Below, piece by piece: positions 27,705 to 52,975 of a DNA stretch of 64,000 bases. Location of the stretch: NCBI RefSeq assembly GCF_055900595.2, contig NZ_CM148325.1, one strand, 5' to 3'. The translations under genes and the position numbers were made by a program. Position 1 is the first letter of the stretch; every line of letters starts with the position of its first letter. The notes beneath the pieces are model-generated. The model ran no database searches. It saw only the letters and a program-made list of their open reading frames with translations, and was not told the origin of the DNA.

Positions 27705-28760
27705 TCAGGATATGGGCTGGGTGTCTAACAGTGCGTAAGGGTTAAAACGGATCACCTCTTCGCCCAGCCAGTCGTTGACGTGTTTCATTGCTTCCATGAC
27801 GGGCATCAGTTCGTTAATGGCAAACACACGGGCTGCCTTCTCCACATCCCCGAATGACCCCTTCTCACCCGGCATGGCCCCCATCAGCTGCGGCGGTACA
27901 CGGTGCACGGACAGCACATCATCACGCGATGCAGCCTTGACGTTCATGAACTCATCCTTTGCGGTGATTTGCTGAAACGGCAAAATCTGTACGCCATCCT
28001 TACCACCTCCCGCCGCGTGGATGAGCAGATTTTTAAACGCCCCGCCACCACGCGCGCTTTGCAGTGTTTCCCGCAGTTTTTCCATGCTTTCACGGTCAAC
28101 CTGCGCCGCACCGATGTAGACAATACAGCCCGCGTGTGAGCCGTTATCGTAGTAGAGCTTGCGGAAGATATCGGCGGAATGTGACAGGCTGGCAGACAGC
28201 AGGCCGCCCAGGTAATCCGGCATCCCGTAAATCTCCTGGTTGATATCAGGATTCATCAGGTGGCATATCGTCCCCTCACGAAAGCGGTACTCTTCCTGTC
28301 CTTCCTGTATATACCACCATGATTTCATATCGCTGCCACGTCGCATGTATTTCGCCAGCGCCCGGCGCAGGGCCAGCGGTTCGCCAAGCATGTTGCGCCG
28401 CAGCTCAAGACAGGCATTACCGAACACAAACCAGTCCATCGCCACCCCGGCGAACTCCTGGCGGGACAGCAGAGGATGTGGAATATAGCAGCCCAGCAGC
28501 ACATTACGTTTGAAGCTGAGCGCCGACTGGTGCCAGGACGTCTGGCGGGCAGCCCGTGCCAGTCCGTACCAGTCAACGGGCGTTTCAAACCACCGCCCGT
28601 TGTCGGCGCAGTACATGCTGTCCAGCAGGTCGGCCCCTGACAGCCGGTAAGGTCCTTCAAACGTGAAGGCACTCAGTGTCGGGTCGCTTCGCAGGGAATC
28701 CGCAAGGCTGCCCTGCGCTGCGCGGGCGTTCGTACGTCGTTGTTTATTTTTTCTGCTCAT
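27705..28760 (-). CDS. Q: portal protein (P2 gpQ family)
   Basis: 351 aa, size and position match P2 Q upstream of terminase P. Confidence 0.8.
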   Translation of the reverse strand: MSRKNKQRRTNARAAQGSLADSLRSDPTLSAFTFEGPYRLSGADLLDSMYCADNGRWFETPVDWYGLARAARQTSWHQSALSFKRNVLLGCYIPHPLLSRQEFAGVAMDWFVFGNACLELRRNMLGEPLALRRALAKYMRRGSDMKSWWYIQEGQEEYRFREGTICHLMNPDINQEIYGMPDYLGGLLSASLSHSADIFRKLYYDNGSHAGCIVYIGAAQVDRESMEKLRETLQSARGGGAFKNLLIHAAGGGKDGVQILPFQQITAKDEFMNVKAASRDDVLSVHRVPPQLMGAMPGEKGSFGDVEKAARVFAINELMPVMEAMKHVNDWLGEEVIRFNPYALLDTQPIS

Positions 28761-30511
28761 CAGAACTCCGTAACACTGAAGGGGGCGGCATCATGTTCAC
28801 CGCCGACAGGTTCGTTGATAACGGCCAGCATGGTGGCCCATGCAAGATCGCCATGGCTTACGCCTCTTGCGCGATCTGTTTCGTAGGTGATAAATCCGGC
28901 CTGCGTTTTTGTTTTGCGTACCGCGTTAAAGGCGCTCACCAGTTCGCGCTCGCTGCGGTCGTACTCCCACCGCCCGGCGCGCATGAGCTGCAGCATCTTC
29001 AGAACCAGCGTGCGCTTTGATGACAGGGTGAAGGTGTAGGGAATGGCTGCCGGAAAAAAGCGCTTCACAATCTGATACACCGCATCCCCGTGACCGCCGG
29101 TTACGTCAATACCGATATGCTCAACGTTATAGCGAAAGGTGAACTCTTCAATCACCTTCGCCTGCGCCTCAAACTCCAGCCCCTGCACCCGCCGCGTCTC
29201 CACGGTGCGAAAACGCCCGCCCGGTACGGCTGGCGGCACCACCACGACAACCGCCCCGCTGTCACCGTTCCCGCTACTGCCGTTGGCGTCGTACCCAATC
29301 CACACAGGGCGGTTCCCCATCGGACGCGGTGCAAACGGCTTCCAGTCCGGCCACTCGTCGTATCCGTCAACACCGCAGCCAATCAGGATATTCAGGTTAA
29401 ATGCCGATTCCCCTTCGCGAGCAAATTCACACATGTAGAGATTGCGGAACTCGTCTTCAGTGTTATTGCGCCGGATTTTGTCAATGTTGGTTAACGTCCA
29501 TCCCTGACTGACCACATCTTCCAGCGTCACAATTTGCCGCCAGATATAGTCAGGACAGATAAGGCCGTTATGAAGCGCATTCCAGCTCACATCAAAATGC
29601 TGACGTTTATGAGTACGAAGCCCTTCATTCCAGTGATCGCCGTTCCAGTATGCATACGCCTCATGTGTTTCACTTGATGGCGTGGAAAAATAGGTACACC
29701 GCAAACCATCCAGCGTTGCCATAGCAGCAGCCACCTTGCGCAGCTCTGCGAAACGCCCCGTCCAGAAAAACTCATCAAAATACAGATTCCCTGTGTACGC
29801 TTGCGCGGTGGCCGCAGAAGTGCCGAGAAAATGCAGCTCTGCACCGTTGGAGAGGATGACTTTATCGCCCCCTTTCAGTTCCACATCAACTTCAGATGCA
29901 GCCTTCTGAATAATGCTTTTAAACTGGAGCGCCTGACGACGAGACGCAGACAAAAAAATCTGGTTACGCTGGTAAGGTTGTGCCACATCGTCACGCAGCG
30001 CCATCAGCAGCGCTTCCTGCGCAAAATACCAGGTCGCCCCAATCTGGCGGGATTTCAGGATCATCCTGTCAGTAATTCCGGCACGCTCACAGGCACCGAT
30101 AGCATCAAGCCATTTGCGCTGGTGTCCGGCCAGCCTGTCGGTAATTTTTTCCCGCAGCGCCGCGATCTGTTCCGGCGTGAAATGATTTTTGTGTTTTTTC
30201 GCCCGGCCTTTCTTTCCTGTTGCCGTCTCATCCGGCAGACCGTCATGCAGCTTTTTAAGCTGACGGGTCAGCAAATCAATTTCCTTAAAGTCCCCGCCTG
30301 TTTTATTCTGTTTTTCCGTGAGCTGAATGAGTCGCGCATCCATGGACTGCGTGACACGCTGAACCGGGGGCGTCTCATCCCACTGGTCGCGTTTTTTCCA
30401 CGAATGGATCGTGTTCTGGTTGATACCCATAAGGCGGGAAATTTCCGCAACAGGGTAACCCTGCCAGTACAGCTGGCGTGCCCGCTGGCGAACAAATGTA
30501 TCCTGAATCAT
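28760..30511 (-). CDS. P: terminase large (ATPase) subunit (P2 gpP family)
   Basis: 583 aa, P2 P-like sequence. Confidence 0.85.
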   Translation of the reverse strand: MIQDTFVRQRARQLYWQGYPVAEISRLMGINQNTIHSWKKRDQWDETPPVQRVTQSMDARLIQLTEKQNKTGGDFKEIDLLTRQLKKLHDGLPDETATGKKGRAKKHKNHFTPEQIAALREKITDRLAGHQRKWLDAIGACERAGITDRMILKSRQIGATWYFAQEALLMALRDDVAQPYQRNQIFLSASRRQALQFKSIIQKAASEVDVELKGGDKVILSNGAELHFLGTSAATAQAYTGNLYFDEFFWTGRFAELRKVAAAMATLDGLRCTYFSTPSSETHEAYAYWNGDHWNEGLRTHKRQHFDVSWNALHNGLICPDYIWRQIVTLEDVVSQGWTLTNIDKIRRNNTEDEFRNLYMCEFAREGESAFNLNILIGCGVDGYDEWPDWKPFAPRPMGNRPVWIGYDANGSSGNGDSGAVVVVVPPAVPGGRFRTVETRRVQGLEFEAQAKVIEEFTFRYNVEHIGIDVTGGHGDAVYQIVKRFFPAAIPYTFTLSSKRTLVLKMLQLMRAGRWEYDRSERELVSAFNAVRKTKTQAGFITYETDRARGVSHGDLAWATMLAVINEPVGGEHDAAPFSVTEF

Positions 30512-42023: not shown

Positions 42024-42043
42024 AATGCGGCACATTACCTTCA
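42024..42043. terminator. bidirectional hairpin between convergent G and U (GTGCCGCA-AGAA-TGCGGCAC)
   Basis: perfect 8-bp stem. Confidence 0.5.
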
Positions 42044-42529
42044 CATCAGATCATTTACGCCGCTTACTGTGGTATTCCAGACCGAACTTAACTTCCCTTT
42101 CATTCCCGAAAGCATATCAGACACCGGCGACGAGGCCATACTCTCCCGCAAATCCTCATCACAGCGTTCCAGACTGACAGTGAACTCAATTTTTTTGGCC
42201 TTACCGTGGCGGTCAAGTTCGCTTCGCGTTGTGCGGACAGCCGTTATCACATACATGCCGTATATCTGCCCCACACCGTCAATCAGCGGCCATGGGCGAC
42301 CAGTGTAAGCCTGCGTCGTTAAAAGGCTGAGGGAAACCTCACCGCCGGTAATTTCGGGATAAAGCACACCGGACAACGTGATCTGGTCGTCACCCGCCCC
42401 GATATACTGCCAGCTGGCCGAACGATTGATGCGTTCATTTTTAACGTGGCGCCAGGTTTTATTATGTTGCAGTTGTTGATGAGGCAGCGTACGCAACTCA
42501 AAAACAAACATGCCGTAAATCATCATCAT
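42041..42529 (-). CDS. U: tail protein U
   Basis: 162 aa, P2 U-like (MMMIYGMFVFELRTLP...). Confidence 0.85.
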   Translation of the reverse strand: MMMIYGMFVFELRTLPHQQLQHNKTWRHVKNERINRSASWQYIGAGDDQITLSGVLYPEITGGEVSLSLLTTQAYTGRPWPLIDGVGQIYGMYVITAVRTTRSELDRHGKAKKIEFTVSLERCDEDLRESMASSPVSDMLSGMKGKLSSVWNTTVSGVNDLM

Positions 42530-42540
42530 GCGAGGTACTC

Positions 42541-45500
42541 CTAATCTCTGTCACGGAAACTACCGACTGTCTGGCGGATACGGCGTTCCATTTCCGCACG
42601 GACGGCATCACCCACCATTTTTGCCAGTTCGCGCGGGTTTTGCGTGTGAACATCATGCAGGTGAATATGCAGTTCGCCAGTTAATCCCCATGGTGCCGGC
42701 TCACTCTGGCGCGGTCGGGGCGATGCGGGGGATATGGGCTGGCGCACAGCCTCAACCACCGGACGGGATGTTGCCGCCATCACTGGTGTCATTAGCGGGG
42801 AGAACGTCGGCATGACATCGTGAGTCATAACCGGTTTGATCACCGGCGGAACCACTGGCGTAATATTACCGGACAGTACCGGACGGACGACCGGAGGAAT
42901 AACCGGCACATTATTCACGGACACCACCGGCTTCACGACCGGCGACACGTTCGCCGTGGTGGATATCAGCGGCGAAACACTGACAGGCGGTGGCGCTGGC
43001 AGCGGTGGCAACGAAGGCACACTGACCGACGGCACCTGCGGCAGTCTGACAGGTGGCTCACTGACACTACCCGGTAACAGGGAAGCTGCTCGGTTAAAGC
43101 GTTCCTCCTTCCACTCACCACGAACGGCCAGCGCTTCCGGCAGGTTTTTAAAGATAATATCGCCGGGACCAGCGCGTTTTTTCGCCTGTTTCGCCTCATC
43201 CAGCAGACCACCGGTGTTATCGACGATTTTGTTCAGGCGGCGCATAGTGCCGGTATTCTCCCCCGTCAGGGGTGGTTGCCCCCCTTTGGGTTTTTCGCCG
43301 TCTTTTTTATCCTCGTCCTTTTTCGGCGGATTAATGACGTTAACATCCGCCAGAAGCATGGCAGCTTTCTCGTTCAGCAACTCCTTCTGTTTTAGTTCTT
43401 CCGCCTTTTTCCGGGCGCGCTCAACCGCCGACGGAATCAGCCCGAGTTTTTCCAGCACCCGGGTTAATGAGTCAATCAGCAGCGTAACCGGACCGGTCAC
43501 CAGATTGCTGATAAACTCCCCGACCTTCTGCCCGAACGTACGCCCGGCTTCCGTGCACTTGTCCAGCTCATCCTTTGTTGTGCTTACCGGCGCGAACAAA
43601 TCCACGAACCACTGCCACACACGCCCGATTGTCTGCCCGACATACTCAAACAGCGGTCCCAGTGGTGCCACAGCCTCGCGCAGTGGCGTAAGCCCCTGCC
43701 ACAGGCCGGACAAGAACCCGCCCACGACAGCCTTCAGCTGGTCCCAGTGCCGCCAGATAAGCACTGCCGCACCGACCAGTGTCGCCACCACAAGGCCCAC
43801 CGGACTTAACAGAAAACCCAGCGCCCCGCCAAGTGCGCCCACCGCACCACTCACCATCCCCCACAGTGCGGGCAGACCTGACAGTCTGAGCGCCAGTATT
43901 CCGATACCGCGCCCCAGTGAAATCAGTGCGCCGCCAGGTGAAGTGAACGCAGCCAGCAGACCACCACGCAGCGCGCCAAGTCCCGCCTGCACACCACGAA
44001 GCCGCCCCGCAACTACGCCCAGCAGTGCAGCAAACCGTCCGGCACCGGAGGTGATACCGACAAACAGCACGCGCCAGCCACCGATACCGCCCAGCGGACC
44101 ACCGAGTACGCCGCGCAGCTGCGTCAGTAACGGCAGCGCACGACCGAGGCCGGATGTGCCGGTCAGCAGGGCAAACCCAAGACGCAGTTTTGCCAGCGGC
44201 CCCATCAACACACCAGTGGCAAGTGACAGCGCCCCCATGGCCGCAACCGCAGCCAGCAGTACACCACCGGCAATCAGCAGTTGTTTTGTCAGTTCAGGGT
44301 GCGCCTGAGCCAGCGCGGTGACTTTCGCAATAACCCGGGTGAACGACTGCGTGACAGAACGCAGCGGCCCGTCAACGAGGTCAGCGACACGGATACGCAG
44401 TCCTTCCCATGCGCTGTTCAGTGATTTCAGGTCACCGTCCAGGTTATCAGCCATAACACGGGCAGTGTGATTAAGTTCCCCGGTGGCCAGTTCAATCTCC
44501 TGCGTAAGACGGGGAAGATTATTTTCCCCCGCCGCAGTGACAAGATTCATCAGGGAAACATAGGACTCCTGCCCGGCAATAGCCCTGAAAAAGGAGACCT
44601 GCGCGGCATTACCGTATTTTCGGGTGGCCTGGTACAGCTCATTCAGGATATTTTCCATCCGGCGCATGTTCCCGTAAGCATCCTGCGTCTCCACGCCAAG
44701 CTCTTTCAGTGCCATTGCAGCGGCCTTCGGCGGATCAACCAGACGTGACAGACTGGCACGCAGCGCCGTACCTGCATCACTTCCACGGATCCCCACACTG
44801 CCAAGGACACCCGTCATGGCTGCCGCCTGTTCAAGGGACAGGCCAAGTGAAGCTGCAACCGGACCCGTGTACTTCATGGTTTCACCCAGCGAACGGAGAT
44901 CCGTATTGGTTCGTGTGAAGGTGGCGGCCAGCGTGTCACCCACGCGATCCATCTGGTCAGCGGACAGACCAAACTGTGTGAGGATATTCGAACTGATATC
45001 GGCAGTCTGTCCCAGGTCCATCCCTGCAGCCATTGCCAGATCAAGCACGCCGGGTAGCGCCGCCTGTATGGCCTGTGGTGTGAAGCCGGCCATGGCAAGG
45101 AACGCCTGACCGCTGGCAGCATCACCGGCGGTAAACTGCGTTTCAGAGCCCAGCTTAATGGCCTGTTCGCGCAGCGCCTTAAACTGCGGACTGTTTTTGT
45201 CAATACGGGTCAGCGCCTGGACGCGCGACATCTCCTTACCAAAACTGACCGCCGGTTGCAGGAAACGTCCGGCCGCATAGCCGCCTGCCGCCGCCGTACC
45301 AACCGCCGTAAGTCCGACCGTTTTAAGTTTTCCCGCCGTCTCCTGAGCACGGGAATATTGCTGGCGTGCCTGCGTGACACGTGCCAGCGCCTGCCGTTCG
45401 CGTTCCAGCTGGTCGTTGTATTGCTGTGTTCGCCGTATGGCCTGTTGAATGGTGTTGTCACTGCCGGAAAGCGCAATACCGTGGCGCCGCAGCTCACCAC

Positions 45501-45852
45501 CCAGTTCGCGCATTCGCTGAACTTCACGCGCACGGACCTCATTGAGACGCTCAAGTTTGAGGCTCAAATCGTTCATCAGCTTTTTCTGTTTGTCAGACAG
45601 CACGGTTCCGGCGCGCTGAATTTGCTGAAGTGCGCTTAACTGGCGTTGCGCCCTGACAATGCCGTTTCCGGCCTTGTTTGCAGCCTCGCGGGCGCGATCA
45701 AATGAACGGGCGTGGCGTTCCAGGTTTTTGATCGCACCCTGCGTTCTCTGTATGGAGTCGCCAAGCTGGCCCATCATGCGACGGGCGTTTTCGGTGGGAC
45801 GGGTCAGCCTGTCAACAGCGCTGAAGGCGACCCGTATATCAAGCGTTTTCAT
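42541..45852 (-). CDS. T: tail tape measure protein (P2 gpT family), extended
   Basis: about 1100 aa; start taken at MKTLDIRVAF where E' terminates; C-terminal Pro/Val-rich repeat region. Confidence 0.85.
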   Translation of the reverse strand: MKTLDIRVAFSAVDRLTRPTENARRMMGQLGDSIQRTQGAIKNLERHARSFDRAREAANKAGNGIVRAQRQLSALQQIQRAGTVLSDKQKKLMNDLSLKLERLNEVRAREVQRMRELGGELRRHGIALSGSDNTIQQAIRRTQQYNDQLERERQALARVTQARQQYSRAQETAGKLKTVGLTAVGTAAAGGYAAGRFLQPAVSFGKEMSRVQALTRIDKNSPQFKALREQAIKLGSETQFTAGDAASGQAFLAMAGFTPQAIQAALPGVLDLAMAAGMDLGQTADISSNILTQFGLSADQMDRVGDTLAATFTRTNTDLRSLGETMKYTGPVAASLGLSLEQAAAMTGVLGSVGIRGSDAGTALRASLSRLVDPPKAAAMALKELGVETQDAYGNMRRMENILNELYQATRKYGNAAQVSFFRAIAGQESYVSLMNLVTAAGENNLPRLTQEIELATGELNHTARVMADNLDGDLKSLNSAWEGLRIRVADLVDGPLRSVTQSFTRVIAKVTALAQAHPELTKQLLIAGGVLLAAVAAMGALSLATGVLMGPLAKLRLGFALLTGTSGLGRALPLLTQLRGVLGGPLGGIGGWRVLFVGITSGAGRFAALLGVVAGRLRGVQAGLGALRGGLLAAFTSPGGALISLGRGIGILALRLSGLPALWGMVSGAVGALGGALGFLLSPVGLVVATLVGAAVLIWRHWDQLKAVVGGFLSGLWQGLTPLREAVAPLGPLFEYVGQTIGRVWQWFVDLFAPVSTTKDELDKCTEAGRTFGQKVGEFISNLVTGPVTLLIDSLTRVLEKLGLIPSAVERARKKAEELKQKELLNEKAAMLLADVNVINPPKKDEDKKDGEKPKGGQPPLTGENTGTMRRLNKIVDNTGGLLDEAKQAKKRAGPGDIIFKNLPEALAVRGEWKEERFNRAASLLPGSVSEPPVRLPQVPSVSVPSLPPLPAPPPVSVSPLISTTANVSPVVKPVVSVNNVPVIPPVVRPVLSGNITPVVPPVIKPVMTHDVMPTFSPLMTPVMAATSRPVVEAVRQPISPASPRPRQSEPAPWGLTGELHIHLHDVHTQNPRELAKMVGDAVRAEMERRIRQTVGSFRDRD

Positions 45853-46002
45853 GCTCTGCGTTCCCGCTGCGAAGGGCCGCCCGCTCACGCCAGGCGACCA
45901 CCTCGCCGGGATCCATCAGGAAGATTTCAGCGGGAGACCAGTTGAAAATAACGGCGATATCCGCCACAAAGTCTTCAATGTGCTCAAAGGGCACGACGGT
46001 TA

Positions 46003-46365
46003 TCAGCCTGCCGTCGCCGCCCCACTCTTCCCGCCAGAGTCCTGACCGGCCAAAAAATTAACCGCCACCCCGCACAGCTGAATAAAATCAGCGGACCCCA
46101 TGCGCTTAAGCAGAACCTCGTCCAGTCGCGGCGAAGTGACGCGCGGGAGTAACTCAAACATCGCGTCCGTTTTCATGTTCAGCACGTCAAGCAGTGACAG
46201 CCCGCGCAGTGAACCGGCCTGCTGTACAGCAGGCGTGATTTCCACATACGTGATTTTTTTGTTACCGAGCACAAGGGGCGTTTTCAGCGTCACGCCGCGC
46301 TCACTGGTCACGTCCGCCGCATCAGCACCGTCAGTAACAGGGGCAACAACCGGATTTTCTTTCAT
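46003..46365 (-). CDS. E: tail assembly chaperone E (E' produced by -1 frameshift, extending to 45839)
   Basis: position between FII and T; slippery TTTTTTG near 3' end; -1 frame stays open until overlapping the T start. Confidence 0.75.
   Translation of the reverse strand: MKENPVVAPVTDGADAADVTSERGVTLKTPLVLGNKKITYVEITPAVQQAGSLRGLSLLDVLNMKTDAMFELLPRVTSPRLDEVLLKRMGSADFIQLCGVAVNFLAGQDSGGKSGAATAG
46051..46057 (-). other. programmed -1 ribosomal frameshift slippery heptamer TTTTTTG (E/E')
   Basis: heptamer 14 codons before the E stop; -1 frame open for about 70 codons. Confidence 0.65.
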
Positions 46366-46415
46366 GCATAAAACCTCAAATCAGGGGGCGACGCCGCGCG
46401 CCGCCGTGGGAAACA

Positions 46416-46934
46416 TTAACCACCAAGACCAATCGCCGAGCGCACGCGGTCCGGGAAGACGTTTTTGCCGTCCTTGCGTTCGATGTGGTTCAGTAAATCA
46501 ATCTCCAGCACCGGACGGTCGTTAATGCTGAGTTTGTAGTAGGTACTCCTGACCGCATAGGTGTGAGACGTGACCTCACCCTGTTTTGCCTCCCCCGTAT
46601 CAATTTCCGTCACGCGGCCGCGAAGCTCAATTTCATACAGGTCGCTCTGCTCTTCATCGTTGTAGTACTCACCGACAAAGCGCAGCAGCGTACCGTCGAT
46701 CGTGCCGCCGTACTTAAGGAACAGTTCGCGGGTCGGCCCGCCCATGGTGAAACTCGCATCCAGCGCGCCGTCATCCAGACCAAGGTCGATATTCACCGCG
46801 CCGGCCATACCACCACCGCGATAGGCTTCCGTTTTACGGGTCAGTTTGGGGGGGGTGAAGCCGGTCACCCTGCCAATCTGGTTCACCCCGTCAGTAAACA
46901 GCGTGAACACCCTGAGATTTTTTGGTACGGCCAT
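46416..46934 (-). CDS. FII: tail tube protein (P2 gpFII family)
   Basis: 172 aa, P2 FII-like. Confidence 0.85.
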   Translation of the reverse strand: MAVPKNLRVFTLFTDGVNQIGRVTGFTPPKLTRKTEAYRGGGMAGAVNIDLGLDDGALDASFTMGGPTRELFLKYGGTIDGTLLRFVGEYYNDEEQSDLYEIELRGRVTEIDTGEAKQGEVTSHTYAVRSTYYKLSINDRPVLEIDLLNHIERKDGKNVFPDRVRSAIGLGG

Positions 46935-48127
46935 TAAGCACCTCCAAGCGTCGCAAATGCAGGACCAAAGAATTCATCAGTAAACGTCTGGTAAAGTTCC
47001 ATATCCTCAAGCGGCGGAACGGGCGTGTACTTGTAGCGGATACGCACGCGTCCCTGACGAAGTTCCGTGGTGCTGTTATCCACCACGTCATACCAGCACT
47101 CCGCACCAATGAGACGTCCTGACGTAACCAGCGCATCCAGTTTTGCGCGAATTGCGCTTAACACGTCTTTCACATTAGCAGGGGTCAGCGGGGCATCAAT
47201 CGTTTCAAACTGCGCTTCCGCAATGGAATCAGCCAGCACCTGAGCGGTTCGCGTGTACACCTCAAAGAGATACGCCTTCGTTTCCGGCGTACGGTTGCCC
47301 CAGAAGCGGAAACCGTTACGGCAAATGATGGTAGTGATTTCCTTGTTGTTGAGATTGTTGGCATCGCTGTCTTCGGACTGAAGGGACCAGAACACCGGGC
47401 TGGAAATACCCAGCACATTTCTTACCGGCACGTTGGACAGCGATTTATGCCAGCCCTGTTCGTGGTCAATACGTGCACGTAAACCGCAGGCGTACGCCGC
47501 AGCCGGGAAGACCTCATTAGCGCCGGATTTCGGGTTATGGGCGATGAAGTCCGGCCAGACCAGCATAAGTTCGCGCTCGTTAAATCTGGCGCGGTAGCTG
47601 ATTGCATCGGCGGGCTTCTTGCAGTTGTGACAGCCCGCGTAGACAAATGCGCGAAGTTTTTCTGCAATTACACACAGGGATTTTGTGACAGCTTCAGTAT
47701 CCAGTCCGGGAGCTGCGATGATGCGCGGACGGTAACCGATGGCATCATCCTGTTCAGCTATCAGAAGTGCATACATGCCGGTATAGTTTCCGTCATCATC
47801 AGAACCACCGATAACGAGTTTGTCCTGGGTTTGTCCTGAATGCGTCTCTTCCTTAAATTCAGGAACGCGCACCACAATCACCTTCGTGCTCACCTGGTCG
47901 GCGACAGCCTTAAGCGATTTGTAAAGCGTCCCCTTTGTGCCGGCCTTACCCAGCACATCACTGACGCGGGTCAGCAGTGTGGGTTTGTTCAGCGGGAACA
48001 GAGTTTCATCCGCGTCATCTGCCGTAGCCACAATACCAATAACACTGGAATCCACATCATTAATGGCGGTGGCAAGGCCGGTACTTTCCCTTACGCGCGC
48101 ACCATGAAAGCGTGTTTCACTCATATG
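46934..48127 (-). CDS. FI: tail sheath protein (P2 gpFI family)
   Basis: about 397 aa from MSETRFHGARV; the six-frame ORF extends further upstream. Confidence 0.85.
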   Translation of the reverse strand, partial: HMSETRFHGARVRESTGLATAINDVDSSVIGIVATADDADETLFPLNKPTLLTRVSDVLGKAGTKGTLYKSLKAVADQVSTKVIVVRVPEFKEETHSGQTQDKLVIGGSDDDGNYTGMYALLIAEQDDAIGYRPRIIAAPGLDTEAVTKSLCVIAEKLRAFVYAGCHNCKKPADAISYRARFNERELMLVWPDFIAHNPKSGANEVFPAAAYACGLRARIDHEQGWHKSLSNVPVRNVLGISSPVFWSLQSEDSDANNLNNKEITTIICRNGFRFWGNRTPETKAYLFEVYTRTAQVLADSIAEAQFETIDAPLTPANVKDVLSAIRAKLDALVTSGRLIGAECWYDVVDNSTTELRQGRVRIRYKYTPVPPLEDMELYQTFTDEFFGPAFATLGGA

Positions 48128-48198
48128 TTTCACCCTTGTCTGGCTGGTTGATTTTGCGTAATCATTACCCACACACGCGGTAATCTCACCCCTTTGAT

Positions 48199-48220
48199 GT
48201 TGTCTCCTGACAGCGACAAC
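48199..48220. promoter_or_regulatory. dyad GTTGTC-N10-GACAAC (contains TGT-N12-ACA) in divergent FI/D intergenic region
   Basis: inverted repeat centred about 55 bp from inferred starts of both FI (minus) and D (plus). Confidence 0.55.
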
Positions 48221-48285
48221 AAAACAGCCATTCAACGCCGCTGCGGTGCATGAAACCATTACAGAACGCACCAGGAGAGAACACC

Positions 48286-49377
48286 ATGAAAGAGCTGTCA
48301 GTTACCGTTCCGTCACCGGATATCGACATCACCATCAACAACAACACACTGGCAAACCTCACAGAGCGACTCATGACGCTGACCCTGACGGATAACCGGG
48401 CCTTTGAGGCAGACCGCGTCACCCTCACCCTTGACGATACGGACGGGCAGTTACAGTTGCCACCACGTGGCGCACGCCTGAGAGTGATGATTGGCTGGCG
48501 AGGAGAATCACTGGTTAACAAGGGCACCTACGTCGTTGATGAGGTTGCGTGGGAAGGACCTCCAGATAAACTGATCATCACCGCCAGCAGCGCAGATTTT
48601 CGGGAAGAGTTCAACGTGAGGCGGGAGGTATCCTGGCACGACGTGACCGTAAAACAGGTTGTGTCAGCCATCGCTCACCGCTACGGCCTGAAGACACAGA
48701 TAAGCGAAATCCTCATGGATATCGAAATTGACCACGCTGACCAGACCGAAGAGAGCGATATATCCTTCCTGACCCGCATGGCTGAAATGCTGGGTGCGAT
48801 TGCCACCGTAAAAAACGGCAGCCTGTTATTCATTCTGCCGGGTGGCGGAACCGGGCCGGACGGAAGAGCCCTGCCTTCGTTCGCCATTACCCGCAGCAGC
48901 GGCGACAGTCACCGCTTTCGCATTGCTGACCGTGATGCGTATACGGGGGTCCGGGCGCACTGGCTCGATCTGAAGTTCGGGCAAAAGAAAAAAGTGAACG
49001 TGAAGCGACGCAGGGAAGCCGGGAAACAGAAACAGGAGAAGAGCAGCAGCCGGGAGGGTGATTACATGGAAGGCGCGGAAGGGAACGTCTACGTTCTGCG
49101 CAGGACTTACCAGAATGAAGAAACCGCACGACGTGCAGCTGCGGCAAAGTGGCAGGAGTTACAGCGGGGAGCAGCGGCATTCTCCATCACTCTGGCACGG
49201 GGTCGTGCCGACCTGTATCCCGAAATGCACGGCAGGGTAACAGGTTTTAAAAGCGAGGTGGACAATCAGGACTGGATTATTGCCAGGGTGGAGCACATCA
49301 TAGATGAAAGCGGCTTCACCACACAACTGGAGCTGGAAGCGAAAATCCCCGAATGGATAGCAGATTCAGGCGGATAA
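48286..49377 (+). CDS. D: tail protein D (late control D family)
   Basis: about 363 aa from MKELSVTVPSP (ORF opens at 48250). Confidence 0.8.
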   Translation: MKELSVTVPSPDIDITINNNTLANLTERLMTLTLTDNRAFEADRVTLTLDDTDGQLQLPPRGARLRVMIGWRGESLVNKGTYVVDEVAWEGPPDKLIITASSADFREEFNVRREVSWHDVTVKQVVSAIAHRYGLKTQISEILMDIEIDHADQTEESDISFLTRMAEMLGAIATVKNGSLLFILPGGGTGPDGRALPSFAITRSSGDSHRFRIADRDAYTGVRAHWLDLKFGQKKKVNVKRRREAGKQKQEKSSSREGDYMEGAEGNVYVLRRTYQNEETARRAAAAKWQELQRGAAAFSITLARGRADLYPEMHGRVTGFKSEVDNQDWIIARVEHIIDESGFTTQLELEAKIPEWIADSGG

Positions 49378-49420
49378 AATTAAAATGAGCCATCTCCACT
49401 CAGCCAGATAAGGAGAAGCC

Positions 49421-49672
49421 ATGTTCCGTTGTCCCCTATGCGGTGCATCCGCACGTATCCGCACCAGTCGCAATGAAAATGATTCAGGCACAGTTCGCCT
49501 GAAGTACTACCAGTGCAATAACCTCGAATGCGGGATCGGCTTTACCACACTGGAGGGTTTTAACAAATTCACATCAAAACGCGCCCCGTCGCCGCAGGGT
49601 ACAGAGCGGATACCGTGGGAAGATTTTCCGGGATCTCACAGGGGGAATACTCAGATTAATCTTGATATTTAA
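49421..49672 (+). CDS. ogr: Ogr/Delta-family zinc-finger late transcription activator
   Basis: 83 aa; CPLC...C..NLEC zinc-binding arrangement like P2 Ogr. Confidence 0.85.
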   Translation: MFRCPLCGASARIRTSRNENDSGTVRLKYYQCNNLECGIGFTTLEGFNKFTSKRAPSPQGTERIPWEDFPGSHRGNTQINLDI

Positions 49673-49784: not shown

Positions 49785-49817
49785 TTTTTTGCCCGCCGGA
49801 AAGCGGGCATTTTTTTA
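49785..49817 (+). terminator. terminator hairpin copy 1 (GCCCGCCGGAAAGCGGGC plus T-run)
   Basis: first of nine near-identical hairpins in 49.8-53.0 kb. Confidence 0.7.
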
Positions 49818-50030
49818 TTCTTTTGTGGTTATGGGGTCATCAGGAACCACGTGCAGATTATATTTTTGTTTTTTTGGCGTTCCTCCGGCAGCAACGAGTT
49901 CATCAATAAGACACTGACACGCCTGAACATCCCGGGCATGTCTTAGTTTCACCTTTATTGATTTAACCTTATCCTCACCGGAGGAGAAATGCAGTTCAAT
50001 CTCAATATCGTTTCTTCGGAACAATCTCAT
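49815..50030 (-). CDS. 71-aa hypothetical protein, intact copy of a repeated gene
   Basis: MRLFRRNDIEIELHFSSGEDKVKSIKVKLRHARDVQACQCLIDELVAAGGTPKKQKYNLHVVPDDPITTKE; decayed paralogues at 51101..51199 and 51784..51855. Confidence 0.55.
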   Translation of the reverse strand: MRLFRRNDIEIELHFSSGEDKVKSIKVKLRHARDVQACQCLIDELVAAGGTPKKQKYNLHVVPDDPITTKE

Positions 50031-50123
50031 ACGCCCCCTGAATATATCAGAAATACTAGTATCGAAAAATGAGAAAACAGTTAGACAGGAGAAACATATT
50101 AACACAAATCATTTATACCTATA

Positions 50124-50141
50124 GATGAAATTATAATTTCA
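50124..50141. promoter_or_regulatory. perfect 18-bp palindrome ATGAAATTATAATTTCAT with embedded TATAAT
   Basis: about 95 bp upstream of the 71-aa gene; related imperfect palindromes upstream of the decayed copies. Confidence 0.55.
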
Positions 50142-50250
50142 TTCATGAATATGATAGATAACTATATTGTGAACAAAATGAAAAATGGCTAAATTAAAAA
50201 TGGGCATGGAGGAATGCCCGGTTATCAATATAATGTGACGTAGATCATTG

Positions 50251-50281
50251 TTTTGCCCGCCGGAGAGCGGGCATTTTTTTT
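50251..50281 (+). terminator. terminator hairpin copy 2
   Basis: GCCCGCCGGAGAGCGGGC plus T7. Confidence 0.7.
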
Positions 50282-50450
50282 GCGCCTGCCATCGAGGCGC
50301 CTTCCCTGGCGCACACAAAGCAGCCCTGATTTTCCATGAAAACTTCAGGGTTGAGCTGCGGGCACAAAGTGAGTAGATTAGCTACGGGTACCTCCCCCTG
50401 ACAACAGGAAGGGTGTCCATTATCCATGATATACAAACGAAAAGTCTTGT
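50282..50450 (+). ncRNA. repeated ~170-nt structured module S1 (candidate small RNA)
   Basis: bounded by terminator hairpins; internal hairpins (GCGCC..GGCGC, CCCTGA..TCAGGG, CCTTCC..GGAAGG); four paralogous copies. Confidence 0.35.
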
Positions 50451-50481
50451 TTTTTGCCCGCCGAAGCGCGGGCATTTTTTT
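50451..50481 (+). terminator. terminator hairpin copy 3
   Basis: GCCCGCCGAAGCGCGGGC plus T-run. Confidence 0.7.
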
Positions 50482-50607
50482 ATGCATCAGACAAGATACA
50501 GCCCACCCCAACTGACACCTGAAATATTGCCGCAACAAAAAGAAACAGTTAAATTACGCGCGGGTGCCTTTCGGCTGATGGCCGGAGGGAAAACCTGAAG
50601 GCCGGAT

Positions 50608-50841
50608 GTGGAAAGGCCCCGGAAAACATTTCTGTTTAACCGAGGCCCTAACCGCATTACCTTGACAAGTGAAAGGTTAGCGCCTCTCCGGAAAAGGAGC
50701 AAGTGCTATGTCGCAAAAATCGCTTACGGCCATCACGTTCTGCGTGACGGCAATCCTCATCATCTGGATATTGCACGGTTCGCTGTGCGAAATACGGATG
50801 AGCTTCTGGGGAGCGGAGTTTGCGGCGTTCTTACAATGTAA
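50608..50841 (+). CDS. mok-like overlapping reading frame of hok locus
   Basis: 77-aa ORF starting upstream of and overlapping the hok-like frame, as in hok/mok/sok loci. Confidence 0.5.
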   Translation: MERPRKTFLFNRGPNRITLTSERLAPLRKRSKCYVAKIAYGHHVLRDGNPHHLDIARFAVRNTDELLGSGVCGVLTM

Positions 50842-50848
50842 GAAGTAA
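50708..50848 (+). CDS. hok: Hok/Gef-family type I toxin (intact)
   Basis: 46 aa MSQKSLTAITFCVTAILIIWILHGSLCEIRMSFWGAEFAAFLQCKK; single TM plus conserved SLCEIR motif; 5' GGGTGCCT (50552) complementary to 3' AGGCACCC (50906). Confidence 0.8.
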   Translation: MSQKSLTAITFCVTAILIIWILHGSLCEIRMSFWGAEFAAFLQCKK

Positions 50849-50934
50849 GGAAACCGCGACGGGGGAGCAATCCCCCGTCAATCGGTTGCCAGGGTAAGGT
50901 CGATAAGGCACCCTATCTCACAGACATGAACAAC

Positions 50935-50970
50935 AAACCCGCAGCATAAAAACTGCGGGTTTTCTTTTTG
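50935..50970 (+). terminator. rho-independent terminator of hok transcript
   Basis: AACCCGCAG-CATAAAAA-CTGCGGGTT followed by TTCTTTTT. Confidence 0.7.
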
Positions 50971-51100
50971 GTGTCCTCACCGACTTGAAACAGTGATCAG
51001 ACTATAAGACAAAGCCCGCAATGTTGCGGGCTTACTCTACCTCTCGAAAATGTGGTCACTGCGTGGACATACGCTGATACAAATCCTTTATATCAATAAA

Positions 51101-51199
51101 TTAAATCTTTGTTTTTTTCATCAACAATGATTTAACCTTATCCTCACCGGAGGAGAAATGCAGTTCAATCTCAATATCGTTTCTGTGGAACAGCCTCAT
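51101..51199 (-). pseudogene. truncated paralogue of the 71-aa gene
   Basis: MRLFHRNDIEIELHFSSGEDKVKS then divergent and stop after 32 codons; retains AGGAGG RBS. Confidence 0.55.
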
Positions 51200-51414
51200 A
51201 AGACAACCTCCTGAATTCATCAGAAACACAGTCAACTGAAAACCAGAAAGCAGACAAACAGTGGACACACATTAATACAAATCATTTATACCTATAGATG
51301 AAATTGCAGTTTCATCTATAACATGACAGGTAACAATATTGTGAAAAAACTCAAAACTCGTTAGATTAAAGACGGACAGAGCAATGCTACTTTATCAATA
51401 ACATGTAACCTGTA

Positions 51415-51445
51415 CTTCCTTATTTTGCCCGCCGAAGCACGGGCA
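51415..51445 (+). terminator. terminator hairpin copy 4
   Basis: GCCCGCCGAAGCACGGGC plus T-run. Confidence 0.7.
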
Positions 51446-51621
51446 TTTTTTTTGCGCCTGCCATCGAGGCGCCTTCCCTGGCGCACACAAAGCAGCCCTG
51501 ATTTTCCATGAAAACTTCAGGGTTGAGCCAAAAGCACAAAGACAGTAGATTAACCACGGGTGCCTTCCACCTGACAACAGGAAGGGTGTCCAGTATCAAT
51601 GACAGACAACTCACATTGCTG
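51446..51621 (+). ncRNA. structured module S2
   Basis: paralogue of S1. Confidence 0.35.
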
Positions 51622-51651
51622 TTTTGCCCGCCGGAAAGCGGGCATTTTTTT
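51622..51651 (+). terminator. terminator hairpin copy 5
   Basis: GCCCGCCGGAAAGCGGGC plus T-run. Confidence 0.7.
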
Positions 51652-51783
51652 ATTCTTTTGTGGTTATTGGGTCATCAGGAACAACATGCAGATTATGCTT
51701 TGATTTTTTTGGTGTTATTACAGCAGCAACGAGTTTATTAATAAGACACTGACATGCCTGAACATCCCTGACATATCATAATT

Positions 51784-51855
51784 TCACTTTATTTTTTTAG
51801 CTTGTCCTTTCTGGAGCAGAAATATCTCAACATCGTTTCTGTGGAACAACCTCAT
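51784..51855 (-). pseudogene. decayed paralogue of the 71-aa gene
   Basis: MRLFHRNDVEIF then frameshift; 3' region still alignable to the intact copy. Confidence 0.5.
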
Positions 51856-52071
51856 TTGCCCCTGAATGTATCATAAATATCAGCATCGGAAAACCAACAG
51901 CAATACAGAAGAAACATGTTAATGCAAATCACTTATACCTATAGATGAAATTACAGTTTTGTTCATAAATATGATAAGTAACTATATTGTGAATAAAATG
52001 AAAACTAGCTAAATTAAACGTGGGCATGGTGGAATGCCTCGTAATCAATAATACATGATCCGTACTTCCTT

Positions 52072-52102
52072 GTTTTGCCCGCCGGAAAGCGGGCATTTTT
52101 TT
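52072..52102 (+). terminator. terminator hairpin copy 6
   Basis: same hairpin. Confidence 0.7.
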
Positions 52103-52270
52103 GGCGGTTACCATCGCCTCACCTTCCTGGTTCACATGAAGCAACCCTGATTTTCCATGAAAACTTCAGGGTTGAGACAAAAGCACAAAGACAGTAGATT
52201 AACCACGGGTACCTTCCACCTGACAACAGGAAGGCTGTCCAGTATCAATGACAGACAACTCACATTGCTG
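52103..52270 (+). ncRNA. structured module S3
   Basis: paralogue of S1/S2. Confidence 0.35.
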
Positions 52271-52299
52271 TTTTGCCCGCCGGAAAGCGGGCTTTTTTT
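52271..52299 (+). terminator. terminator hairpin copy 7
   Basis: same hairpin, T-run after GGGC. Confidence 0.7.
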
Positions 52300-52471
52300 G
52301 GCAGTTATCATAGCCGCACCTTCCTGGCACATATGAAGCAACCCTGATTTTCCATGAAAACTTCAGGGTTGAGACAAAAGCACAAAAACAGTAGATTAAC
52401 CACGGGTGCCTGCCACCTGACAACAGGAAGGGGTGTCCATTATCCATGATATACAAACGAAAAGTCTTGTC
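52300..52471 (+). ncRNA. structured module S4
   Basis: paralogue, 3' end like S1. Confidence 0.35.
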
Positions 52472-52501
52472 TTTTGCCCGCCAAAGCGCGGGCATTTTTT
52501 T
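52472..52501 (+). terminator. terminator hairpin copy 8
   Basis: GCCCGCCAAAGCGCGGGC plus T-run. Confidence 0.7.
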
Positions 52502-52712
52502 ATGCATCAGACAAGATACAGCCCACCCCAACTAACACCTGAAATATTGCCGCAACAAAAAGAAACGGGTGCCTTTCGGCTGATGGCCGGAGGGAAAACC
52601 TGAAGACCGGATGTGGAAAGGCCCCGGAAAACATCTGTGTTTAACCGAGGCCTGACCCTTCCTACCGTGACAAGTGGAAGGTTAGCGCCTCTTTGTAAAA
52701 GGAGCAAGCGCT

Positions 52713-52853
52713 ATACCGCAAAAAACGATTATTGTTGGCATTTTATGCCTGACAATAACCCTGGTCATCTGGATGGTCCACGATTCGTTATGTGAATTCA
52801 GCTTTGATATCTGAGGAGCGCGTTTTGCGGCGTTCTTGCAGTGTAAACCGTAA
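52713..52853 (+). pseudogene. hok-like toxin pseudogene (second copy)
   Basis: paralogous to 50708..50848 but start codon is ATA and an in-frame TGA replaces the Trp codon; mok-like frame 52613..52795 retained. Confidence 0.7.
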
Positions 52854-52948
52854 GAAACCGCAGCGGGGGAGAAATTCCCCGCTATCCGGTTGTTGGGGTG
52901 GGCCGATATGGCGCCCTTTCCCTGTAGAGACAAAACAAAAAACCAGAT

Positions 52949-52975
52949 TTGCCCGCCATTGAGAGGGCTTTTTTG
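52949..52975 (+). terminator. degenerate terminator hairpin copy 9
   Basis: GCCCGCCATTGAGAGGGC plus T6. Confidence 0.45.

What the first reader, a model, noticed from the sequence alone, without database searches (positions are those of the whole stretch)
45839..46365. E/E' programmed -1 frameshift signal
TTTTTTG lies 14 codons before the E stop, and the -1 frame stays open for about 70 codons, ending exactly where the tape measure start overlaps. This matches the conserved tail-chaperone frameshift arrangement.
Basis: partly seen in the sequence, partly recalled or inferred. Interest (0 to 1): 0.3.

Follow-up and report, generated by a model that had tools for sequence, protein, structure and literature searches.

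The report
P2-type tail chaperone frameshift site
This is the well-known programmed -1 ribosomal frameshift that lets P2-like phages make two tail-assembly proteins (E and the longer E+E') from one start codon; it sits in an E. coli prophage, is real, and is ordinary.

Summary
On the minus strand, gene E (46365..46003, 120 aa) contains T TTT TTG at 46057..46051 in the phase needed for a tandem -1 slip. The -1 frame opens right there, after a TAA, and runs 70 codons to a TGA at 45841..45839, 14 nt inside the tape-measure gene T (ATG 45852).

The -1 frame codes for protein. It matches Pfam Phage_P2_GpE and phrog_1756, and the 175-aa fusion aligns across the junction with P2 E+E' (36% identity, E 2e-27). 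The reference P2 record marks its frameshift at the same heptamer.

In 81 distinct related loci (15 clusters), E' is always in the -1 frame and an in-phase X XXY YYZ heptamer always sits at the homologous position. Background is 0.1-0.3% per codon. Many lineages have no start codon for E', which argues against independent initiation. Variant heptamers with runs of only 3-4 T argue against transcriptional slippage. No downstream RNA structure is conserved.

RefSeq annotates E' here as a separate 51-aa gene, which is probably a mis-annotation. Known biology, low interest.

The parts
46003..46365 (-). Gene E: zero-frame product, 120 aa, the tail assembly chaperone body. ATG at 46365, TGA at 46005..46003.
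   Evidence: ORF. phrog_103 'tail protein' E 4.7e-31. Homologous to P2 gpE. Lies between the tube and tape-measure genes.
46374..46377 (-). GAGG Shine-Dalgarno of E, 8 nt upstream of the ATG. It is the only ribosome-binding site serving both E and E+E'.
   Evidence: Read directly from the sequence.
46051..46057 (-). Slippery heptamer T TTT TTG (E codons 104-105 plus the preceding T). This is the site of the -1 shift.
   Evidence: Phase check. Same heptamer and position as in P2. An in-phase X XXY YYZ heptamer is present at this position in 81 of 81 distinct loci.
45839..46051 (-). E' extension in the -1 frame: 70 codons (46051..45842) plus TGA at 45841..45839. G46051 is read twice.
   Evidence: Translation. 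PF06528 Phage_P2_GpE E 4e-12. phrog_1756 E 8e-32. The linker motif W..ER.GDG is conserved in the -1 frame.
45839..46365 (-). Predicted E+E' fusion CDS, join(46365..46051, 46051..45839), 175 aa.
   Evidence: BLASTP against P2 E+E': 36% identity, E 2e-27, aligned through the junction. AlphaFold model pLDDT 85.7, pTM 0.75, with pLDDT of at least 90 across the junction.
45839..45852 (-). 14-nt overlap between the end of E' and the start of the tape-measure gene T (ATG 45852..45850).
   Evidence: Overlaps of 8-38 nt are found in most of the related loci where a T start could be assigned.
42541..45852 (-). Gene T, the tape measure protein (1,103 aa) and presumed client of E and E+E'.
   Evidence: PF10145 E 6e-53. 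TIGR01760 E 7e-78. Aligns end-to-end with P88 T.
46416..46934 (-). Gene FII, the tail tube protein, immediately upstream of E.
   Evidence: PF04985 E 1.8e-44.
46065..46071 (-). SD-like GGGGUGG whose GGGGUG core ends 8 nt 5' of the heptamer. Possible stimulator, not established.
   Evidence: Duplex with the anti-SD -9.5 kcal/mol, in the top 1.8% of background positions. Comparable elements occur in 6 of 15 lineages.

Best explanation
This is the P2-type E/E+E' programmed -1 ribosomal frameshift of a P88-like (Xuanwuvirus-type) P2-family prophage in E. coli. Ribosomes start at the E ATG (46365). Most of them terminate at 46003 and give the 120-aa E protein. A minority slip back one nucleotide on T TTT TTG (46057..46051) and continue in the -1 frame for 70 codons, giving a 175-aa E+E' protein that ends inside the start of the tape-measure gene. 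By analogy with lambda G/GT and P2 E/E+E', both proteins act as tail assembly chaperones for the tape measure. The shared E part would bind the tape measure, and the E' domain would link it to tail tube assembly. Their ratio is fixed by the slip frequency. Shown here: the anatomy, the homology of both parts to P2 E+E', and conservation of an in-phase slippery heptamer across relatives. Inferred: that slipping actually happens at this locus, how efficient it is, and the chaperone function.
For: Anatomy and phase are as described. The -1 frame encodes the conserved E' domain: PF06528 at 45.8 bits against a 23-bit cutoff, and phrog_1756 at E 8e-32. The fusion aligns with P2 E+E' across the junction at E 2e-27. 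tblastn with the fusion finds 389 phage records, those listed nearly all matched as two pieces, meaning two reading frames. The reference P2 record has a joined E+E' CDS and a 'site of -1 translational frameshift' at the end of the homologous TTTTTTG. Burkholderia phage Musica is annotated the same way. In 81 distinct loci forming 15 clusters, E' is always in the -1 frame and an in-phase X XXY YYZ heptamer is always at the homologous position: T TTT TTG 55, A AAT TTT 14, C CCT TTC 9, T TTT TTC 2, T TTT TTA 1. The background rate is 0.12-0.26% per codon. Many lineages have no ATG, GTG or TTG in the -1 frame before the conserved domain, and no candidate start has an SD. The literature reports that in P2 the -1 shift at TTTTTTG gives E (91 aa) and E+E' (142 aa), that this is conserved in P2-like phages, and that no downstream hairpin is present (PMC3091744, PMC3931495). 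For lambda, G/GT are made at about 30:1 and this ratio is crucial for tail assembly (PMC5009743).
Confidence: 0.93

Rival explanations
1. E' is an independent small gene, a 51-aa protein initiated at GTG 45994, as annotated in RefSeq ('GpE family phage tail protein') and in the P88 and Chuche records. On this reading the heptamer is incidental.
For: A GTG exists at 45994, and the ORF 45839..45994 is annotated as a separate CDS in E. coli GF4 and P88.
Against: No SD precedes this GTG. In many related lineages the -1 frame has no ATG, GTG or TTG at all before the conserved domain. The linker upstream of the GTG (GLW.EE.GGDG) is conserved in the -1 frame. The slippery heptamer is conserved in 81 of 81 loci. 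P2 E' is reported to lack a ribosome-binding site (PMC3931495).
Confidence: 0.03
2. The fusion arises by transcriptional slippage: RNA polymerase inserts an extra U in the U6 run, and the edited mRNA is then read normally into the E' frame.
For: A homopolymeric T6 run is present. A one-U insertion would give a 175-aa product (...NFFGR...) identical to that of a P-site-only ribosomal slip, so sequence alone cannot exclude it for this locus.
Against: Relatives keep a tandem-slip heptamer while shortening the homopolymer to 3-4 T (A AAT TTT A, C CCT TTC T). That fits tRNA re-pairing, not polymerase stuttering. From my own knowledge, six residues is short for efficient bacterial RNA polymerase slippage. 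The P2 site is described as translational (PMC3091744).
Confidence: 0.03
3. The signal is an inactive relic: the prophage is defective and no E+E' is made, and the tape-measure gene is a pseudogene as RefSeq says.
For: PGAP flags T as 'incomplete, missing C-terminus'.
Against: In the window T is one uninterrupted 1,103-codon ORF that aligns end-to-end with P88 T. FI, FII, E, U, D and ogr are all intact with strong family matches. The E-E' region is 93-94% identical at protein level to two viral contigs, with heptamer and frames preserved.
Confidence: 0.01

Closest known systems
Bacteriophage P2 E / E+E' (-1 frameshift in the FETUD tail operon; Christie et al. 2002, cited through PMC3091744 and PMC3931495; RefSeq NC_001895 P2p25/P2p26)
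   Same: Identical heptamer T TTT TTG in the same phase at the homologous xFL position. The E' domain is homologous (PF06528). The fusion is 36% identical to P2 E+E' with the alignment crossing the junction. E' ends inside the T start. There is no downstream hairpin. The position between FII and T is the same.
   Different: E is longer here (120 against 91 aa), as is the fusion (175 against 142 aa). The zero-frame tail after the slip is 15 codons against 6. The linker carries an extra conserved ~10-residue W..ER.GDG segment. The FI-FII-E-T-U block is inverted relative to D and ogr.
Escherichia phage P88 and other Xuanwuvirus-type P2-like phages (closest sequenced relatives)
   Same: Same gene order and orientation. 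74-79% nucleotide identity over the E-E' region. 70-codon extension.
   Different: P88-type sequences read A AAT TTT TTG, which gives two overlapping heptamers, and a sister group reads A AAT TTT ATG, which leaves only A AAT TTT. The window has GTT AAT TTT TTG, with only T TTT TTG available. Their records annotate E' as a separate ORF.
Lambda G / GT tail assembly chaperones and the conserved frameshift of dsDNA phage tail genes (Levin 1993; Xu, Hendrix and Duda 2004, 2013, 2014, as summarised in PMC5009743)
   Same: [quoted passage not shown] The presumed role is to chaperone the tape measure.
E. coli dnaX -1 frameshift (A AAA AAG with an upstream SD and a downstream hairpin; my own knowledge)
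   Same: Tandem-slip heptamer. In this window an SD-like GGGGUG lies 8 nt upstream.
   Different: There is no downstream hairpin. The upstream SD-like element is absent from 9 of 15 lineages and its spacing varies.

Membership tests
P2 gpE / gpE+E' frameshifted tail protein pair | The gene lies between the tail tube gene (FII) and the tape-measure gene (T). | tested here: met
   FII is PF04985 at E 1.8e-44. T is PF10145 at E 6e-53 and TIGR01760 at E 7e-78. U is PF06995 at E 2.8e-41.
P2 gpE / gpE+E' frameshifted tail protein pair | The zero-frame product is homologous to P2 gpE. | tested here: met
   BLASTP against P2 E+E' gives E 2e-27, and the alignment covers the E body. phrog_103 at E 4.7e-31. 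Neither Pfam nor NCBIfam has a model that hits the E body.
P2 gpE / gpE+E' frameshifted tail protein pair | The -1-frame ORF encodes the conserved E' domain (Pfam PF06528). | tested here: met
   PF06528 scores 45.8 bits against a 23-bit cutoff on fusion residues 134-169. phrog_1756 at E 8e-32.
P2 gpE / gpE+E' frameshifted tail protein pair | A slippery X XXY YYZ heptamer (T TTT TTG in P2) lies in E phase where both frames are open, at the homologous position. | tested here: met
   Found in 81 of 81 distinct relatives.
P2 gpE / gpE+E' frameshifted tail protein pair | E' has no translation start or ribosome-binding site of its own. | tested here: inconclusive
   The window has a GTG at 45994 without an SD. 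Many relatives have no start codon at all in the equivalent stretch. This argues strongly against independent initiation, but the window sequence alone cannot prove it.
P2 gpE / gpE+E' frameshifted tail protein pair | The 3' end of E' overlaps the start of T. | tested here: met
   14-nt overlap. Overlaps of 8-38 nt occur in most of the relatives where a T start could be assigned.
P2 gpE / gpE+E' frameshifted tail protein pair | The fusion protein is actually made, and both products are needed for tail assembly. | not testable with these tools
   This needs mass spectrometry, western blotting and genetics.
Tail assembly chaperone (lambda G/GT-type) functional class | The fold resembles solved tail assembly chaperones. 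| tested here: inconclusive
Tail assembly chaperone (lambda G/GT-type) functional class | The protein binds the tape measure, is absent from mature virions, and a fixed short-to-long product ratio is required. | not testable with these tools
   Biochemical properties, known for lambda (PMC5009743).
dnaX-type stimulated -1 frameshift site | A downstream stimulatory hairpin or pseudoknot. | tested here: not met
   Single-sequence z-scores of -0.45 and -0.71. Alifold on 15 lineages predicts no pairs.
dnaX-type stimulated -1 frameshift site | An upstream internal Shine-Dalgarno at about 10 nt. | tested here: inconclusive
   The window has GGGGUG ending 8 nt upstream, -9.5 kcal/mol, top 1.8% of background. 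6 of 15 lineages have something comparable, rough Fisher p of 1e-4. It is not universal, the spacing varies, and it may be a by-product of Gly, Val and Glu codons.

The most novel reading that the evidence does not exclude
In a subset of P2-family E/E' sites, including this one and P2 itself, an internal Shine-Dalgarno-like element a few nucleotides upstream of the heptamer (here GGGGUG, 8 nt upstream) pairs with 16S rRNA and tunes the slip frequency. That would set lineage-specific E:E+E' ratios, perhaps matched to tape-measure length (1,103 aa here against 815 aa in P2). This would be a dnaX-like stimulator not described for tail-chaperone frameshifts, which are usually said to lack stimulators.
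Probability: 0.15. Interest if true: 0.3.

Novelty: already known. Interest (0 to 1): 0.1.

Why it matters
For biology it matters little. The E/E+E' frameshift of P2 and its conservation in P2-like phages have been known since 2002-2004, and this is another instance. The practical value is for annotation. In RefSeq this prophage's E is called a 'hypothetical protein', E' is a free-standing 51-aa gene, and the intact tape-measure gene is called a pseudogene. The P88 and Chuche phage records likewise lack the joined CDS. The comparative set also shows that selection maintains the slippery pattern X XXY YYZ, not the TTTTTTG sequence itself. That supports a ribosomal mechanism over a transcriptional one.

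Tried and rejected
1. Downstream stimulatory RNA structure. Folding 51 and 91 nt after the heptamer gave z-scores of -0.71 and -0.45. Seven relatives gave z between 0 and +1. Alifold on 15 lineages found no pairs. Rejected.
2. Independent initiation of E'. Rejected on start-codon and SD absence in relatives.
3. Frame-specific conservation in the overlap. The -1 frame is only slightly better conserved than the zero frame (27.8% against 21.2% pairwise identity over 14 codons), which is weak by itself.
4. Sequence search of the PDB with the fusion and with a 23-sequence profile found nothing. Foldseek against the PDB found nothing significant.
5. NCBIfam has no model for E or E+E'. Pfam has no hit on the E body even at E of 10 or less.
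6. The single-protein scan of viral contigs gave only 2 loci. The alignment-based scan was needed.
7. The primary P2 paper (Christie et al. 2002; PMC135442) is not held, so its content is cited second-hand.
8. A search for any frameshift discussion about P88 found none in the P88 paper.

Full report
OBSERVATION. The genes lie on the minus strand. E runs from ATG 46365 to TGA 46005..46003 (120 aa) and is preceded by a GAGG Shine-Dalgarno 8 nt upstream. TTTTTTG occupies 46057..46051 in the phase (AA)T TTT TTG, which makes codons 104 (TTT) and 105 (TTG). This is the X XXY YYZ arrangement a tandem -1 slip needs. The E stop is codon 121, so 15 sense codons follow TTG.

In the -1 frame a TAA sits immediately 5' of the T-run. 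The frame is then open for exactly 70 codons after the slip and ends at TGA 45841..45839. The tape-measure ATG is at 45852..45850, so E' and T overlap by 14 nt. RefSeq/PGAP chooses the same T start. A -1 slip would give a 175-aa E+E' protein.

IS IT MORE THAN CHANCE? The heptamer alone means nothing: it occurs 27 times in the window against 16.5 expected. In 11 genes of this prophage (5,210 codons) there are 17 in-phase X XXY YYZ heptamers, and 4% of positions have a -1 frame open for at least 70 codons, with a median of 10. That predicts about 0.7 chance coincidences. The E site is the only one observed. The window-only statistics are therefore modest, and the case rests on homology and comparison.

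WHAT IT IS. The neighbours are:
- tail sheath FI and tail tube FII (PF04985, E 1.8e-44);
- tape measure T (PF10145, E 6e-53; TIGR01760, E 7e-78);
- U (PF06995, E 2.8e-41);
- on the other strand, D (PF05954) and Ogr (PF04606).

The E body matches phrog_103 (E 4.7e-31). The -1-frame peptide matches phrog_1756 (E 8e-32) and Pfam PF06528 'Phage_P2_GpE' (45.8 bits against a 23-bit cutoff, fusion residues 134-169). The -1 frame therefore encodes a conserved protein domain.

The conceptual fusion aligns with P2 E+E' at 36% identity (E 2e-27), and the alignment runs straight through the junction. tblastn with the fusion finds 389 phage records, those listed nearly all matched as two pieces, meaning two reading frames, and P2 is among them. 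The reference P2 record (NC_001895) carries a joined E+E' CDS ('-1 frameshift; essential tail protein') and a 'site of -1 translational frameshift' feature at the end of GGT TTT TTG, the homologous heptamer. Burkholderia phage Musica annotates its homologue as a frameshifted tape-measure chaperone.

The window is 100% identical to a prophage in the E. coli GF4 chromosome, and 27 of 5,426 complete E. coli genomes carry at least 80% of this module. Its closest described relatives are P88-type phages (Xuanwuvirus), at 74-79% nucleotide identity and with the same gene order.

COMPARATIVE TEST. I gathered 87 loci: the window, 4 annotated phage records and 82 loci from viral contigs. They give 81 distinct E-E' sequences in 15 clusters at 85% or more nucleotide identity.

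In every locus E' is in the -1 frame relative to E. Every locus has an in-phase X XXY YYZ heptamer at the homologous 'xFL' position:
- T TTT TTG in 55;
- A AAT TTT only in 14;
- C CCT TTC only in 9;
- T TTT TTC in 2;
- T TTT TTA in 1.

The background rate of in-phase heptamers in the same loci is 0.12% per codon in the upstream part of E and 0.26% in T. With a median overlap zone of 27 codons, about 3-7% of loci should show one by chance. The observed figure is 100%, always at the same place. Where the T-run is broken, another valid heptamer replaces it, so selection acts on slipperiness and not on the sequence. The geometry is also conserved in most lineages: 14-17 codons from slip to E stop, extensions of 64-76 codons, and E' ending inside the T start. 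P2 and the Burkholderia phage are shorter (6 and 14 codons to the stop; 57 and 55-codon extensions).

RIVALS.
(a) Independent initiation of E'. RefSeq/PGAP and the P88 and Chuche records annotate a separate 51-aa ORF that starts at the GTG equivalent to 45994. No SD precedes it. Many lineages have no ATG, GTG or TTG anywhere in the -1 frame between the slip site and the conserved domain. The linker upstream of that GTG carries a motif (W..ER.GDG) conserved in the -1 frame. P2 E' is also reported to lack a ribosome-binding site (PMC3931495). I reject this rival.
(b) Transcriptional slippage on the T6 run. It cannot be excluded from this sequence alone. However, relatives keep tandem-slip heptamers with only 3-4 consecutive T, which fits tRNA re-pairing and not polymerase stuttering.
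(c) Dead relic. All the tail genes are intact, and T aligns end-to-end with P88 T.

MECHANISM. The step best supported by inference is this. A ribosome with tRNA-Phe on UUU (P site) and tRNA-Leu on UUG (A site) shifts back one base to UUU UUU and then reads GGC CGG UCA and onward. A P-site-only slip before the UUG codon is decoded would give Phe instead of Leu at residue 105. The two differ only in that residue, and mass spectrometry can tell them apart.

No downstream stimulatory structure exists. Window folds give z of -0.45 and -0.71, relatives give z between 0 and +1, and alifold predicts no pairs. This agrees with reports for P2, KS5, KS14 and KL3 (PMC3091744).

An SD-like GGGGUG ends 8 nt upstream of the heptamer. 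Its duplex with the anti-SD is -9.5 kcal/mol, in the top 1.8% of background positions. Comparable elements occur in 6 of 15 lineages, P2 included (rough combined p about 1e-4). They are absent from 9 lineages, their spacing varies, and they may simply reflect Gly, Val and Glu codons. I treat this as a possible stimulator, not an established one.

FUNCTION. By homology to P2, where both E and E+E' are annotated as essential tail proteins, and by analogy with lambda G/GT, the pair should chaperone the tape measure during tail assembly. In lambda the G part binds the tape measure, the T part recruits the tube protein, and a ratio of about 30:1 is crucial (PMC5009743).

NOVELTY AND VERDICT. The feature is the known P2-type E/E+E' frameshift in a P88-like prophage. 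It differs from P2 only in detail: a longer E, a longer linker and an inverted tail-gene block. The added value is an annotation correction and a comparative demonstration that the slippery pattern is what is conserved. Interest is low (0.1). Confidence in the frameshift reading is 0.93.

Noticed in passing
window 42541-45852 (-): RefSeq/PGAP annotates the tape-measure gene of the identical E. coli GF4 prophage as a pseudogene ('missing C-terminus'), plus a second pseudo-fragment. The window has one uninterrupted 1,103-codon ORF that aligns end-to-end with P88 T (935 aa). It differs by two insertions: a hydrophobic Gly/Ala/Leu-rich segment at about aa 508-573 and a Pro/Val-rich segment at about aa 935-1030. 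The pseudogene call is probably an annotation artefact. The longer tape measure would predict a longer tail.
   Followed up: partly
window 42041-49672: The FI-FII-E-E'-T-U block is on the minus strand, while D (48250-49377) and ogr (49421-49672) are on the plus strand. The block is thus inverted relative to P2's co-linear FI FII E T U D ogr. P88 has the same arrangement, with a DNA invertase gene next to U.
   Followed up: partly
window 46003-46365 and 45839-45994 (-): In RefSeq (E. coli GF4) E is named 'hypothetical protein' (WP_000662443.1) and E' is a separate 51-aa 'GpE family phage tail protein' (WP_001115715.1). No ribosomal-slippage join is annotated. The P88 and Chuche phage records do the same. 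Pfam's 'Phage_P2_GpE' model actually covers the E' (-1 frame) part, not the E body.
   Followed up: yes
L008-L024 (A AAT TTT ATG), L047-L059 and L076 (C CCT TTC TTG), L066/L073 (T TTT TTC), L057 (T TTT TTA): Related prophages replace TTTTTTG with other valid tandem-slip heptamers at the same position. Within the P88-like cluster, half the sequences read A AAT TTT TTG (two overlapping heptamers) and half read A AAT TTT ATG (only the upstream one). This suggests the shift can occur one codon earlier in that group.
   Followed up: partly
window 46065-46071 (-): An SD-like GGGGUGG has its GGGGUG core ending 8 nt upstream of the heptamer (-9.5 kcal/mol against the anti-SD, top 1.8% of positions). 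Similar elements occur in 6 of 15 lineages, P2 included, but with variable spacing. It could be a dnaX-like stimulator or a codon-composition by-product.
   Followed up: partly
window 46058-46060 (-): In this lineage a TAA in the -1 frame lies immediately 5' of the T-run (GT TAA TTT TTT G), so the E' frame opens exactly at the slip site. Other lineages have the -1 frame open 2 to 134 codons before the slip, so this is not a conserved feature.
   Followed up: yes
window 29951-29957 (-), inside the ORF at 28760-30511 that I labelled P (label not checked against any family): A second in-phase T TTT TTG occurs at codon 187 of 584 in the ORF I labelled P. The -1 frame is open for only 10 codons there, so this is most likely chance.
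   Followed up: partly
window 49785-52975: Eleven of the window's 27 TTTTTTG matches cluster in about 3 kb just past ogr, a stretch with few long ORFs. It may be AT-rich accessory or hotspot DNA at the prophage end. P88 carries a hok/MokW-like gene near the equivalent position. I did not examine it.
   Followed up: no
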